DNA of 64,000 bases from Octopus vulgaris (Eukaryota), in NCBI GenBank assembly GCA_951406725.2, contig OX597837.1, positions 44,020,001 to 44,084,000 of the forward strand. Reading direction: 5' to 3'. Each line of letters begins with the position of its first letter. Position 1 is the first letter of the stretch. Below, in pieces: positions 46,122 through 64,000 of the stretch. Under the pieces are notes generated by a model. It was not told the origin of the DNA, searched no databases, and was given only the letters and a program-made list of their open reading frames with translations. A program made the translations under genes and the position numbers.

Positions 46122-46320
46122 AGTTAATCCAAACAAGAAAACAAAAATACAACAACGCAAGGACGTGGAACAAATAAAGTATTATTGGACGCTCAGGAAA
46201 GAAGGGAAGAAGGTGGGTTTTGACGTTTCGAGCGGAGCTCTTCGTCGGAAACATAGGAGAAGGAAAGATCCCGAGAAGGGAAGACAGGGGAAAAAAATCG
46301 CTAGTGATACAGACGAGGTA
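46122..46320 (-). mobile_element. Short non-coding element (family H1) with a minimal hammerhead at 46217-46252
   Basis: GTTT-CCGACGA-A-GAGC(TCC)GCTC-GAAAC-GTC-AAAAC; 3' end TTTGGATTAAC adjoining TA-rich sequence. Confidence 0.85.
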
Positions 46321-48589
46321 AGGATAGATAGATAAATAGATATACACATATATGTGAGTGTATGCACATATACAAGTATATCTACATATACTTATGCATA
46401 TATATATATATATGCATGTATACAGTTTTTATACGTATATATATATATATAATATATATATATATATATATATATATATATATACGTGTGTGCATGTATG
46501 TAAGTGTATTCTCCCTCCCGTCTCTCTCTCTCTCTCTCTCTCTCTCATCCGCCAAAAATATATATTATATATATATATATATATATTATATATATATATA
46601 ATATATATATTATATATATATATAAAATATATATTATATATATATATATATATATATATATATATAAATATATATATATATATATATATATATATATATA
46701 TACATGTATATGCATACACACACACACGCGCGCACACACTCACGCACACACATGTTACACATACATACAAGCATACATATATACACATGCACATACATAC
46801 ACAGATGCGAATACATTTATAAAGTATCGCAGTCATAACGTGAAAGGGATATTTTAGGCCTCAAATATTGTTAAGTTAAAATGGCGTTCCTTGACATTTG
46901 CAACCAAGGCGCCATTATTATTTATTTTTATTACAATCATTATCGTTATTATTATCATTATTATTATTATTATTATTATTATTATTATTATTATTATTAT
47001 TATTATTATTATTATTATTATTATTATTAACAGCCATAATACAGAACAATAATCGTTTGCCTACTAAAGGAGGACGTGTCCTTGTTCGCTCCCAAAAATT
47101 TCACTCGCGGCACTCGGAAGCAATATAATAATAACAATAATAATAATAGTAATAATGATGATGATGGTGATGATGATGATGGTGATGATGTTGATGATGA
47201 TTTTTTTATTTTTGCCACAAGGCCCCCAAGACATGAAGGACAATATCAAAGGATGAGATACATCAAATAATTATAATAACAATAATAATAACAATTATAA
47301 TGATGATGGTGGGGGGAGGGAATGGTGGTGGTGGTGATGGTTGCAGCGGCGGCGGTGGTGGTGGTGGCAGCGGCGGCGGTGGTGGTGGCGGTGGCGGTAG
47401 TGGTGGTGGTGGCGGCAGCGGCGACGGTGGTGGTGGTAGTGATGATGATAATGATGATGATGATGATGACGAGGACGAGGAGGAGGATGAGGAGCACAAC
47501 AATAACAACATCAACAACTGCAACAGCCGTAACACCAGCCAACAACCACAATAATAATAATAATAATAATAATAATAATAATAATAGTAGTAGTAGTAGT
47601 AGTAGTAGTAGTAGTAGTAGTAGTAGTAGTAGTAGTAGTAGTAGTAGTAGTAGTAGTAGTAATACAAGAAACAAAAAAGATAAAAGTTGAATGGATAAAA
47701 AATTTTTGGGAGTTTCTTCTAGTAAATAGTTCGGCATTTGGCTCGACACTCATCATCCATTGTCTTTGAGGGTTCCATCTGTCGATGGGTGTGAGTATGT
47801 GTATCCGTATGTGCGTATATCTGTGTGTGTATGTGCGTGCGTGCGTGATTATGTATGTATGTGATGTATGTATTCATTTGTCTGAAAGGTGGGGTTCTAT
47901 GTTTACCTTAGCATATTTGTTTCATGGGTCTAGATTGTGTGTTTGTACATTATTACGGCATTGCCGGGTTTTTACAGGGGTGTGGAATGGCAGAATCGTT
48001 TGTGCGTCGAACAAAATTGCAGTATTCGTATGAGCTCTATACGTACGTAGTTCAAACCCTGGTATGGCGAGGTCAACATTGACTTTCATACTTGTTGCAT
48101 CGATAGAAGTATCAATCAATCGGAGGTGGGGAGTCGATATAATCGTCTGTTCCTCTGTATGTGTGTGTGTGTGTACGTGCGTGTGTGTGTATGTGTGTGT
48201 ATGCGCGCATGTGCGCGAGTGTTTGTGGGTGTGTGTTAGTTTTGCAAAAATTCTTGATGCAAGGGGTATATGGTTGTTTAAGGGTTATGCGGGATAAATT
48301 GCGAAAATAACTCTAACAGTTCAAATACTAAGAAATAAGCATACTCAATTTCATATATACCAAATAATTTAGGAAAATGAATGGGTTATTTCCCTTGGTT
48401 ATATATAAGGATCCCTTCCAGGGGCCCTATTTTCGATTTTTTTTTTTTTTCTCAACAATCTGAGTATGGCATGAGGTTCCCAGACATAAGTCTTACTAAC
48501 GTATCAAGTTTCACCAAGATCGATAAAACGATGTAGGAGGAGTTAGCTAACAACTCCACAGACAGAATTTCCCACATATGTAGTATGTA

Positions 48590-48761
48590 TATGTCTTCCC
48601 TTCTCTGGATCTTTCCTTCTCCTATGTTTCCGACGAAGAGCTCCGCTCGAAACGTTAAACCCTCCTTCTTCCCTTCTTTCCTGAGCGTCCAATAATACTT
48701 TATTTGTTCCACGTCCTCGCGTTGTTGTGTTTTCTCTTTGTGTTTTCTTGTTTGGATTAAC
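48590..48761 (+). mobile_element. Family H1 element with a minimal hammerhead at 48626-48660
   Basis: GTTT-CCGACGA-A-GAGC(TCC)GCTC-GAAAC-GTT-AAAC; runs into (TA)n. Confidence 0.85.
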
Positions 48762-61124: not shown

Positions 61125-61333
61125 ATGTGACCTCGTGTGTACCGTTGGCGATTTTTTTCCCTCTGTCTTCCCTTCTCGGGATCTTTCCTTCTCCTATGTT
61201 TCTGACGAAGAGCCCCGCTCGAAACGTTAAACCCTCCTTCTTTCCTTCTTTCCTGAGCGTCCAATAATACTATATTTGTTCCACGTCCTCGCGTTGTTGT
61301 GTTTTTTTTTGTGCTTTCTTGTTTGGATTAACT
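61125..61333 (+). mobile_element. Family H1 element with a canonical-core minimal hammerhead at 61198-61232
   Basis: GTTT-CTGACGA-A-GAGC(CCC)GCTC-GAAAC-GTT-AAAC. Confidence 0.88.
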
Positions 61334-63879
61334 TTAAATATATATATGCATATATACGTGGGCTTCTTTCAGTTTCCGTCTACCAAATTCATTCACAAGG
61401 CTTTGGTCGGCCCGAGACTATAGTAGAAGACACTTGCCCAAGGTGCCAGGCAGTGGGACTGAACCCGGAACCGCGTCGTTGTCAAGCAAGCTTCATTCTA
61501 CTCAACCACCCCTGCGCCTCATTATATAATATTACTCACTATATCTCTCCTGGTTTAAAGTGCACACACACACACACACACACACACACACACACACACA
61601 CACACACACACACACACACACACACACACACACACACACACACACACACACACACACACACACACACACACACACACACACATACACACACACATACACT
61701 TTCTTTCCTCTCCCTCCTCGTCTGCCGCCTCTCTACCACTCTCTCACCTTCTTCCTCTCTTTCCTCTCCCCCCACTTTAAATTAACTTACTTCCTCTTCA
61801 CTCCCACACTCCCTACCTCATCCTCCCCACACAATCACTTCAATTTTTTTGCATTTAAGTATTTCAGTCATCGTTTTTAATTTTACACTTCCTCATCCTC
61901 CTCTCTTTCGCCAGATTCCTCTTTTGGGAACACCCCGTCGCCTCTCTCCCCATGGCTATGTGGTAAGAATCTTGCTTCCCAACCACATGGTTCTGGGTTC
62001 ATTCCCACTGCGTGGCCTTTTGGGCGTGTGTCTTTTACAATAGCCTCGGGGCGACCAAAGCCATGTGAGTGGATTTCGTAGACGGAAATTGAAAGAATCC
62101 CGTCGTATATGTGTATATGTGTGTCTGTATATGTGTGTGTATATGTTTGTATGTCTGTGTTTGTCCCTTCCCACCATCGCTTGACAACCAATGTTGGTTT
62201 GTTTACATCCCCTTAACTTAGCGGTTCGGCAAAAGTGACCGATAGAATAAGTACTAGGCTTACAAAGAATAACCCCTGAGGTCGATTTGTTCGACTAAAG
62301 GCGGTGCTTCAGCATGGCCGCAGTCAAATGACTGAAACAAATAAAAGAGTATACACACACACACCCACACAACGGGCTTCTTTTAGTTTCCATTTACCAA
62401 ATCCACTCACAAGGCTTTGGTCGGCCCGAGGCTATAGTAGAAGACACTTGCCCAAGGTGCCACACTGTGGAACTGAACCCGGAACCATGTGGTTCGTAAG
62501 CAAGCTACTTACCACGCATCCACGCCTCGAATTTCTATGGGGTTCCATCCGATTAAGATACGAATCAAGTGGGTCCATAGGTAAAATAGGGACGAGAACT
62601 GCCGTATAAAGCTTTCAGGGTGCTGCCCCAGCATGACCGCAATAAATGATTGAAATAAAATTCAATGTTAGACCAGGAGTGGTAGTCTATATGGGTAACA
62701 CATGATACGTAGAACAATAACTGGAGCAGAGCAGCTGCAAATATTTTCAGCGAAGAATATTTGGACCCAAGGAATATTACCGAAAGCAACTCTGCAGAAA
62801 ATGGCTTAGAAAATTCACAGGCGTAGGAGTGGAACCACATGGTTCCGGGTTCAGTCTCACAGCGTGGCAGCTCGGGCAAGTGTCTTCTGCTATAGCTCCA
62901 GGCCAACCAAAGCCTTGTGAGTGCATTTGGTAGACGGAAACTGAAAGAAGCCCGTCGTATATATGTATATGTATATATATATATATGTGTGTGTGTGTGT
63001 GTGTGTGTGTGTGTGTGTGTTTGTTTGTCCCCCAGCATCGCTTGACAACCGATGCTGGTGTGTTTACGTCCCTGTAACTTAGCGGTTCGGCATAAAGAGA
63101 GACCGATAAAATAAGTACTAGGCTTAGAAAGAATATGTCCGGGGGTCGATTTGCTCGATTAAAGGCGGTGCTCCAGCATGGCCGCAGTCAAATGACAGAA
63201 ACAAGTAAAAGCGTAAAGTGAGAGAGAGAGCGTATCTGTTCCCTGCTTCTTTCTCTTTCTCTCTCTCTCTCTCTCTGCCTGTCTCTCTTACTCTCTCTCC
63301 TTATCTTTATCTTATTTCTCATCGTAGTTCTTCTTACTCTTTCTCTCACTTCCTTTCTCTTGCATCACTCATCCCCCCCACCTCTCTCTCTCTCTCCTTG
63401 TTTTTTATATATATACTACCATTTTTCCTTAGCTTTTTGTTTCTTTTACCTTACCCTCTATCCTCCTTCCGTCTCTACCATTCCCTCTCACATATCAGTT
63501 AAGACCAGCCCAACCCTAAATATCTGTGTATATACATACATACATATTACACTTGTGTGTGTAAAATGTATGTACATTTGTGTACATGTGGTGTGTATGT
63601 GTTTGTGTGTGTATATATACACATATCTGTATGTGTGTCAATATGCGTGTGTATATATATATCGTTACACACTCACACACACACACACACACATATATAT
63701 ATATATATATATATATATATATATATATATATATATATATATATATATATATATATATATATATATATATATATATATATATATAAATTCAGGGTGAATA
63801 CTTGATAAGTGTAAGCACCTGTATATGCCATTTGATGCACATATATATATATATATATATATATATATATATATATATA

Positions 63880-64000
63880 GTTAATCCAAACAAGAAAACA
63901 CAGAAAAACACAACAAAGCAAGGACGTGGAACAAATATAGTATTATTGAACCTCAGGAAAGAAGGGAAGAAGGAGGGTTTAACGTTTCGAGCGGAGCTCT
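63880..64000 (-). mobile_element. Family H1 element truncated by the window edge
   Basis: GAGC(TCC)GCTC-GAAAC-GTT-AAAC and the same 3' end at (TA)n. Confidence 0.82.

What the first reader, a model, noticed from the sequence alone, without database searches (positions are those of the whole stretch)
46122..64000. Family H1: a 200-bp SINE-like element with a 35-nt minimal hammerhead and no tRNA head
There are four copies in 18 kb (46122-, 48590+, 61125+, 63880-), with a fixed 3' end TTTGGATTAAC at TA-rich sequence and variable 5' truncation. The motif has a 4-bp stem I, GAGC/GCUC stem II with a variable loop (UCC/CCC), and a loopless palindromic stem III (ACGU) that can only form in a dimer. 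Variation falls in the loop and at the H position (GUU/GUC), as expected for selection on function.
Basis: partly seen in the sequence, partly recalled or inferred. Interest (0 to 1): 0.7.

Follow-up and report, generated by a model that had tools for sequence, protein, structure and literature searches.

The report
Penelope retroelement ends with altered hammerhead
These four repeats are short end pieces of a Penelope-type jumping gene, present in an estimated 19,000 copies in TA microsatellites; most carry a hammerhead self-cutting RNA motif with one changed core letter that would likely slow it, and they were likely copied from uncut RNA.

Summary
The four copies and the 35-nt minimal hammerhead shape are real, but this is not a stand-alone SINE. 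It is the last ~210 bp of the terminal repeat (pLTR) of a 6-kb Penelope-like retrotransposon in the same genome (RT, zinc-finger linker, GIY-YIG; 92-94% identical). A sister family with 1008-aa open frames and tandem arrays shares the hammerhead. There are roughly 19,000 copies, mostly in (TA)n. The variation is mainly in the core: only 1 of 4 window copies has CUGA, and CCGA (U4C) dominates genome-wide (3,674 against 856) and in the intact sister family (97 of 100). The 5' ends are also not simply random: 95 of 100 stop within 235 nt and about 1 stops at the cut site. This fits internal priming on an uncut, pLTR-started RNA with run-off at its 5' end (inferred). Cleavage is untested. Minimal hammerheads in truncated Penelope-like elements were described in 2014, and this scan noted CCGA cores before on other DNA. 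Verdict: a new member of a known kind, with a modest twist.

The parts
46123..46319 (-). Copy 1, 197 bp, pLTR end of a Penelope-like element
46218..46252 (-). Hammerhead motif of copy 1: CCGACGA core (U4C), GUC at the cut site, one stem I pair broken by an extra A
48592..48761 (+). Copy 2, 170 bp, followed by (TA)n
48626..48660 (+). Hammerhead motif of copy 2: CCGACGA core (U4C), the commonest form in the genome
61124..61332 (+). Copy 3, 209 bp, reaching almost to the common 5' limit (AATGTGACC)
61198..61232 (+). Hammerhead motif of copy 3: the only one of four with the canonical CUGACGA core; rare CCC loop
63880..64000 (-). Copy 4, cut by the window end; 174 bp in the genome, core CGGACGA (U4G), (TA)n on both sides
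48762..48830 (.). (TA)n target tract at the 3' end of copy 2 (similar TA-rich flanks at the other three)

Best explanation
The repeats are the terminal ~210 bp of the pseudo-LTR of an endonuclease-bearing Penelope-like retrotransposon, likely pasted into (TA)n tracts by that element's protein from uncut RNA, and most carry a hammerhead with a U4C core change that would likely slow cutting. Steps: (1) SHOWN: a 6-kb parent has pLTR - leader - one ORF (RT, CX5CxxC linker, GIY-YIG with CCHH) - long (CA)-rich 3' region - pLTR, and the window repeat is the pLTR's last 210 bp. (2) INFERRED: transcription starts inside the pLTR about 215 nt before its end, as for the internal promoter of Drosophila Penelope. 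(3) INFERRED from a known Penelope-like protein: the endonuclease nicks AT-rich DNA and reverse transcription starts inside the RNA. Here it would start at the UUUAUAUA that follows the pLTR end in tandem copies (SHOWN as sequence), which can pair with the TA target. (4) INFERRED: on an RNA that starts in the pLTR, priming at this first site leaves only ~215 nt to copy, so the enzyme runs off the 5' end and leaves a SINE-sized stub. Priming at the downstream pLTR gives long or full copies. (5) SHOWN: the copies span the hammerhead cut site, so the template was uncut or rejoined. (6) PREDICTED: the hammerhead works, if at all, slowly, as a dimer or with protein help.
For: Parent L032: repeat at both ends, 94% and 92% identical to window copy 3, 800-bp direct repeat, RT and GIY-YIG frames between. 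Motifs ADKG, YIDD, CSRSRCNTC and LIYCIKCNLC..YVG in the open 949-aa sister ORF; Atlas neighbours at 0.96-0.98 carry RVT_1, HTH_animal and GIY-YIG. Of 17 long-frame loci or arrays picked from 138 RT matches, 12 have a hammerhead pLTR on both sides, with arrays of 4 and 3 pLTRs at ~6.2 kb. 73 of 87 copies with a readable 3' end have (TA)3+ within 5 nt. 5' extents of 100 anchor-picked copies: 26 under 195 nt, 69 at 195-235, 5 over 235, and only one (104) within 5 nt of the cut site at about 105. 30 of 30 hammerhead-picked copies stop at or before the same limit. In the sister family 5 of 30 stop at the homologous point (208-214) and the rest run 244 to over 1600 nt. Leader-bearing loci show tails and inverted 5' copies, as described for these elements (PMC8557442, passages). 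Internal priming, AT-rich nicking and insertion independent of hammerhead cleavage are shown in vitro in PMC11167929 (results read).
Against: No transcription start was measured; only assembled contigs of uncertain RNA status were available. The closest parents of the window family that I read are broken (L032 has stops and frameshifts); the open frames belong to a sister family about 81% identical in DNA. Pfam scores are below the curated cut-offs (RVT_1 E 0.0012; GIY-YIG E 0.0023 and 0.012). The short-to-long excess is far larger in the window family than in the sister family (95 of 100 against 5 of 30), which run-off alone does not explain and self-copying of stubs could. Folding predicts a competing hairpin for the monomer (-6.5 to -9.2 kcal/mol against -1.7 to -3.8 for stems I+II) and a non-catalytic duplex for the dimer.
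Confidence: 0.75

Rival explanations
1. The stubs are pLTR-derived but now copy themselves: each carries the internal promoter, is transcribed into its TA flank and is mobilised in trans by the Penelope-like protein, as a non-autonomous SINE-like family.
For: Stubs outnumber exact pLTR-leader junctions by orders of magnitude (7,997 anchor matches against 51). The fixed 5' limit would include an internal promoter. Commonest 3' flank is AAC-TATATA (36 of 100), against 26 with the parent's AAC-TTTATA. Non-autonomous derivatives with pLTRs are reported for Chlamys elements (PMC8557442, passage).
Against: Leader-bearing loci carry both core types and fall into several lineages, including a CUGA one. 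Parent L032 itself ends AAC-TATATA at its 3' pLTR, so that end needs no stub template. In the one tested Penelope-like protein, the needed RNA part lies downstream of the pLTR (PMC11167929), which stubs lack. The junction count is an exact pattern and so a lower bound.
Confidence: 0.17
2. Ordinary random 5' truncation of full-length copies; the 210-nt class only reflects where the enzyme stalls or where the (CA)-rich upstream part is hard to recognise.
For: Most Penelope-like insertions are 5'-truncated (PMC8557442 passages; preprint 10.64898/2026.07.22.740005 discussion). 26 of 100 copies are shorter than 195 nt with scattered ends.
Against: About 60 nt of non-repetitive parent sequence lies just upstream of the limit, yet only 5 of 100 copies pass 235 nt. 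The sister family reads through the same point in 25 of 30 cases.
Confidence: 0.06
3. An independent SINE or retrozyme that replicates through hammerhead-cut, circular RNA.
For: Short, high-copy, non-coding, with a dimer-type hammerhead. 17 of 30 junction loci are deleted mini-tandems with two pLTR ends about 360-690 nt apart.
Against: Window copies are dispersed monomers with one hammerhead. No tRNA head, no A box on the sense strand, no exact B box, and a T7 run about 25-30 nt from the 5' end would stop Pol III before the ribozyme. Ends do not map to the cut site. Each mini-tandem has its own junction, and the one tested occurs at a single locus.
Confidence: 0.02

Closest known systems
Minimal hammerheads (min-HHR) in pLTRs of metazoan Penelope-like elements (Cervera and de la Pena 2014, PMC4209133; parts 1-2 of 4 read: abstract, results, discussion)
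   Same: Type I, short helix I, extra base between positions 9 and 10.1, G10.1-C11.1 pair, palindromic 15.2-16.2, located in the pLTR, mostly found as single motifs from truncated elements.
   Different: The majority core is CCGA (U4C) rather than CUGA; stem II has only 4 bp, where the Schistosoma families described there have 7-8.
Neptune/Nematis-type C-terminal EN+ Penelope-like elements (Craig et al. 2021, PMC8557442; passages read)
   Same: RT followed by CX2-5CxxC linker and GIY-YIG with CCHH; DKG motif; partial tandems, tails, inverted 5' copies; (TA)n preference.
   Different: Unit of about 6.2 kb with a ~2.5-kb (CA)-rich 3' region. Clade not placed by phylogeny here. Not Hydra (which has DKT and no CCHH) and not Naiad (N-terminal endonuclease).
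PAc, Poseidon element of Anolis (Frangieh et al. 2024, PMC11167929; parts 1-2 of 4 read: abstract, results, start of methods)
   Same: Works like it by inference: AT-rich nicking, reverse transcription started inside the RNA near the pLTR end, uncut RNA as template, hammerhead not required for insertion.
   Different: Different clade. Here the main start site abuts the pLTR end, the ORF begins about 260-330 nt downstream, and the result is some 19,000 fixed-length stubs.
Non-LTR retrozymes (Li et al. 2026 preprint 10.64898/2026.07.22.740005; parts 1 and 3 of 5 read)
   Same: pLTR-derived, non-coding, hammerhead-bearing; the deleted mini-tandems seen here look like raw material for them.
   Different: The window copies are dispersed monomers, and no amplified tandem family was found.
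U4C hammerhead of a viroid (as cited in Perreault et al. 2011, PMC3088659; passages read)
   Same: Same core change, stated there to lower activity considerably in vitro while allowing infectivity.
   Different: There a sporadic variant in a full hammerhead; here the majority state of a retroelement lineage in a minimal hammerhead.

Membership tests
EN+ Penelope-like element (pLTR end of) | Repeat is homologous to direct repeats flanking an RT + GIY-YIG ORF | tested here: met
   94% and 92% over 212 nt; 12 of 17 loci or arrays flanked on both sides
EN+ Penelope-like element (pLTR end of) | Single ORF with RT then C-terminal GIY-YIG | tested here: met
   motifs; Atlas; Pfam hits weak, below cut-off
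EN+ Penelope-like element (pLTR end of) | Tandem or partial-tandem arrays, optional tail, inverted 5' copy | tested here: met
   arrays on C10 and C16; 5 of 30 with tails, 3 of them with an inverted copy
Neptune/Nematis type | CX2-5CxxC linker, CCHH in the endonuclease, DKG in RT | tested here: met
   definitions from PMC8557442 passages
Neptune/Nematis type | RT phylogeny places it in Neptune rather than Nematis | not tested
   no reference sequences of these clades were in hand
Neptune/Nematis type | (TA)n target preference | tested here: met
   73 of 87
Minimal type I hammerhead (min-HHR) | Helix I, helix II with G10.1-C11.1, extra base after A9, GAAA, palindromic helix III, UH site | tested here: met
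Minimal type I hammerhead (min-HHR) | Canonical CUGANGA core | tested here: not met
   1 of 4 window copies; 16 of 87 genome copies fully canonical, 70 of 87 if U4C is allowed
Minimal type I hammerhead (min-HHR) | Structure conserved between lineages more than flanks | tested here: met
   33 of 35 identical against 57 of 89 and 72 of 104; third family keeps stem II and ACGU, changes loop, N7 and H17
Minimal type I hammerhead (min-HHR) | Core less variable than flanks among copies | tested here: inconclusive
   p = 0.002 unmatched, p = 0.08 when matched for A/T; U4 and CpG sites left out
Minimal type I hammerhead (min-HHR) | Self-cleavage as a dimer | not testable with these tools
   needs an in vitro assay; folding does not favour the active form
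Pol III SINE | tRNA/5S/7SL head with A and B boxes, no early T run | tested here: not met
   no Rfam match at the copies in the 150 of 315 rows shown
Non-LTR retrozyme | Tandem units each with a hammerhead | tested here: not met
   window copies are dispersed monomers; mini-tandems are unamplified one-offs as far as tested
Non-LTR retrozyme | Circular RNA joined at the cut site | not testable with these tools
   only contigs, none on record as RNA

The most novel reading that the evidence does not exclude
These Penelope-like lineages keep deliberately weakened hammerheads (U4C here, A6U in a related family of at least 9,586 copies) because uncut RNA is the template. A short pLTR-started RNA, primed about 215 nt from its own 5' end, mass-produces 'strong-stop' insertions that pass for SINEs, and deletions between leader and pLTR keep creating two-hammerhead mini-tandems, the birth stage of retrozymes.
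Probability: 0.3. Interest if true: 0.55.

Novelty: new member of a known kind. Interest (0 to 1): 0.3.

Why it matters
Mostly it corrects an annotation: a very abundant 'SINE-like' repeat is the end of a Penelope-like element. Two points go beyond that. An apparently still-active lineage has kept the whole hammerhead while fixing a core change expected to slow it, and it has a canonical-core subfamily as a natural control. That makes the open question of what these hammerheads do directly testable. The sharp 5' limit is also genomic support, in a second clade, for the internal priming seen in vitro, and would explain how such elements make SINE-sized copies in bulk.

Tried and rejected
Rfam scan: 315 matches at E <= 1; the 150 shown are microsatellite-driven microRNA look-alikes and one viral UTR match at E 0.36, with no hammerhead among them; 165 rows not seen. 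Repeat finder: swamped by microsatellites. 'CUGA copies are only CpG decay of CCGA': rejected as the main cause, because single-change CUGA (856) far exceeds the opposite-strand decay CCAA (146) and CUGA is linked to other diagnostic sites; a few cases, such as the 5' pLTR of L032, probably are decay. 'L108 mini-tandem is an amplified retrozyme family': rejected, its junction occurs only twice, at that locus. Expression: no RNA holder listed; contigs guessed to be RNA cover the hammerhead and parts of the ORF but cannot show starts, strand or level. PDB sequence search with the sister ORF: 0 matches. ORFs of 110 aa or more in 42000-64000 are simple-repeat or SINE frames; no host gene recognised (read by eye). 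The descriptor scan had a matching fault that dropped GUU sites, so its counts are not used. Lunse et al. (RNA Biol 14:1499) on dimeric Penelope hammerheads was not held; I saw only its citation in PMC6765202, and it may list U4C variants. Supplements of PMC4209133 and PMC8557442 were not opened and may hold octopus families or U4C motifs.
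Full report
Observation. The four copies exist at 46123-46319 (-), 48592-48761 (+), 61124-61332 (+) and 63880-64000 (-). They are 89-95% identical to copy 3 with E of 7e-50 or better, and the alignments I saw show no fifth copy in the window. All end in TTTGGATTAAC beside TA-rich DNA. The motif is a 35-nt minimal type I hammerhead shape: GUUU/AAAC stem I, seven core bases, one extra A, GAGC/GCUC stem II, GAAA, a loopless ACGU palindrome and a UH site. Copy 4 is cut by the window edge; I read its rest from the genome.

The genome and copy number. The window lies in a 2.8-Gb animal genome; that it is octopus-like is my inference from size and microsatellite load, and earlier scan notes say the same. 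Exact patterns give 7,317 matches for the hammerhead with its CpG variants and 7,997 for a 35-mer downstream, with 0 matches for the reversed controls. Of the first 100 copies picked by the downstream anchor, 38 also match the hammerhead pattern. That gives about 19,000 copies, a rough figure and probably low.

The parent. One of the first 30 loci (L029) ran on past the 3' end into coding sequence. The 10-kb stretch L032 shows the repeat twice, 5.97 kb apart, as the last 212 bp of an 800-bp direct repeat, 94% and 92% identical to window copy 3. Between the two lie a leader, a broken ORF with RT and GIY-YIG motifs, and a long (CA)-rich region. An RT search returned 138 scored matches of 9,768 candidates, many in open frames of 880-1008 aa or more. 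I fetched 17 of these loci or arrays, chosen for long frames or tandem spacing. They belong to a sister family, about 81% identical in DNA, with the same hammerhead in its pLTR. Twelve of 17 have it on both sides, and two arrays hold 4 and 3 pLTRs at about 6.2 kb spacing. The 949-aa protein has ADKG, YIDD, a CX5CxxC linker and a GIY-YIG domain with the two cysteines and later histidines. By the definitions in Craig et al. 2021 (passages) this fits Neptune or Nematis, not Hydra, Naiad or Penelope/Poseidon; I ran no RT tree against references. Pfam hits are weak and below cut-off, and Atlas neighbours carry RVT_1, HTH_animal and GIY-YIG.

Ends. In tandem copies the pLTR end is followed by TTTATATACC (window family) or AATTATACC (sister), and at a terminal pLTR by (TA)n. 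So the RNA carries a short UA-rich stretch exactly where insertions end. Of 87 copies with a readable 3' end, 73 have (TA)3 or more within 5 nt and none continues into the leader. 5' ends are bounded: 30 of 30 hammerhead-picked copies stop at or before CCTTCAAAATGTGACC. Of 100 anchor-picked copies, 26 are shorter than 195 nt, 69 end at 195-235 and 5 go further. Only 56 exact matches extend upstream of the limit and 51 cross into the leader; both patterns are subfamily-specific and so lower bounds. In the sister family 5 of 30 stop at the homologous point and 25 run 244 to over 1600 nt, so the limit is not an absolute block. Contigs from two runs labelled as other organisms show loose ends at the same place, reading ...TTCAA (83 and 80 contigs). 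Only 1 of 100 5' ends lies within 5 nt of the hammerhead cut site, about 105 nt from the 3' end, so cut RNA was not the usual template.

The core change. Exact counts are CCGA 3,674, CUGA 856 and CCAA 146. In the sister family 30 of 32 pLTRs of long-frame loci and 97 of the first 100 of 891 matches are CCGA. Among 87 of the 100 anchor-picked copies (13 dropped as too short), 22 are CUGA. This state is tightly linked to other sites (20 of 22 against 1 of 65 at one site, p = 2e-16), so it marks a subfamily; its copies show more CpG decay (0.82 against 0.34 per copy, p = 0.011). In a tree of 26 leader-bearing rows (7 of 30 junction loci left out as too short, 3 sister rows added), two CUGA loci of that subfamily group with CCGA loci in a clade at 97/94 support, and the sister family is CCGA. 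U4C is therefore likely old and CUGA likely a reversion; the root is only a midpoint. In four runs labelled as other organisms, C makes up 52-67% of contig depth at this position (depth is not copy number).

Is the motif under selection? Among copies the test is weak, as inserted copies decay neutrally: non-CpG core sites other than U4 differ in 4 of 604 cells against 164 of 6,483 in flanks (p = 0.002), but only p = 0.08 when matched for A/T. Between lineages the signal is clear. The hammerhead is 33 of 35 identical between window copy 2 and the sister family, while the flanks of the two parents match at 57 of 89 and 72 of 104. A third family (9,586 exact matches) keeps GAGC/GCUC, the extra A and ACGU, changes the loop and H17, varies freely at N7, has U4 in 98 of the first 100 and U in place of A6 in 96. 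The fold is kept, while each lineage has fixed one core change. Folding does not favour the active form: the monomer prefers a competing hairpin and the dimer a plain duplex. U4C is described as lowering activity considerably in vitro while allowing viroid infectivity (Perreault 2011, passage).

Mechanism. Shown: parent anatomy, target, both end distributions, uncut templates, core states. Inferred: a start site inside the pLTR (Drosophila Penelope has an internal promoter, PMC2377424 passages; a rotifer pLTR of 218 bp has an initiator-like motif, PMC3846280 passages); nicking of (TA)n and priming inside the RNA (shown for the Anolis element, where hammerhead mutants still insert); and run-off at the RNA's 5' end. 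The main rival is that stubs copy themselves in trans. The far larger short-to-long excess in this family favours it, while the presence of leader-bearing relatives of both core types speaks against it. Of 30 junction loci (of 51), 7 run into the ORF, 5 stop 105-132 nt into the leader (3 with an inverted 5' copy), 17 are pLTR-leader-pLTR mini-tandems each with its own junction, and 1 stops at 536 nt. Any of these could supply short RNA.

Comparison and novelty. Cervera and de la Pena 2014 describe this motif class in pLTRs, its dimer logic, its low activity and its spread as single motifs from truncated elements. A repeat annotation of Octopus vulgaris lists recently active Penelope families and does not contain the words hammerhead or ribozyme in its main text. 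Two searches for U4C or CCGA hammerheads found only the Perreault paper; Lunse et al. was not held, and supplements were not opened. This scan has earlier unchecked notes of CCGA and A6U cores in Penelope-like stubs on other DNA. Verdict: real, explained, a new member of a known kind; interest 0.3.

Noticed in passing
G000, e.g. L245-L250; also flanks of L002 and L089: A second hammerhead family with the same stem II and ACGU palindrome, but CUG-U-N-GA core (A6U in 96 of the first 100) and GUAG loop; 9,586 exact matches.
   Followed up: partly
L083-L112 (junction loci): 17 of 30 are deleted mini-tandems pLTR-leader(205-434 nt)-pLTR with different junctions; possible retrozyme precursors.
   Followed up: partly
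L108 (G000:C10:69344286-69344707): The same deletion junction occurs twice, 389 bp apart, and nowhere else in the genome: more than one round on a deleted unit, or a local duplication.
   Followed up: partly
L088, L091, L100; also L058/L059, L039: Inverted pairs of stubs; in L088, L091 and L100 the inverted copy's 5' end (at the common limit) abuts a shorter copy that bears a tail.
   Followed up: partly
L033-L052: A young sister family with 1008-aa open frames, pLTR pairs 97-100% identical and tandem arrays, apparently recently active; its stem I has a U-U mismatch (AUAC) on top of U4C.
   Followed up: partly
window 23223-23649 and 25082-25639: Two tandem arrays of a 184-190 bp unit, inverted relative to each other and 92% complementary; looks like tandem copies of another interspersed repeat.
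   Followed up: no
window 12324-12667 and 36600-36943: 344-bp inverted pair, 95% complementary, next to a tRNA-like ARAGORN hit at 36929-37005; probably two SINE copies.
   Followed up: no
window 61345-61520: Another common repeat (also beside several fetched loci) directly follows copy 3's short TA flank; both seem to use TA tracts.
   Followed up: no
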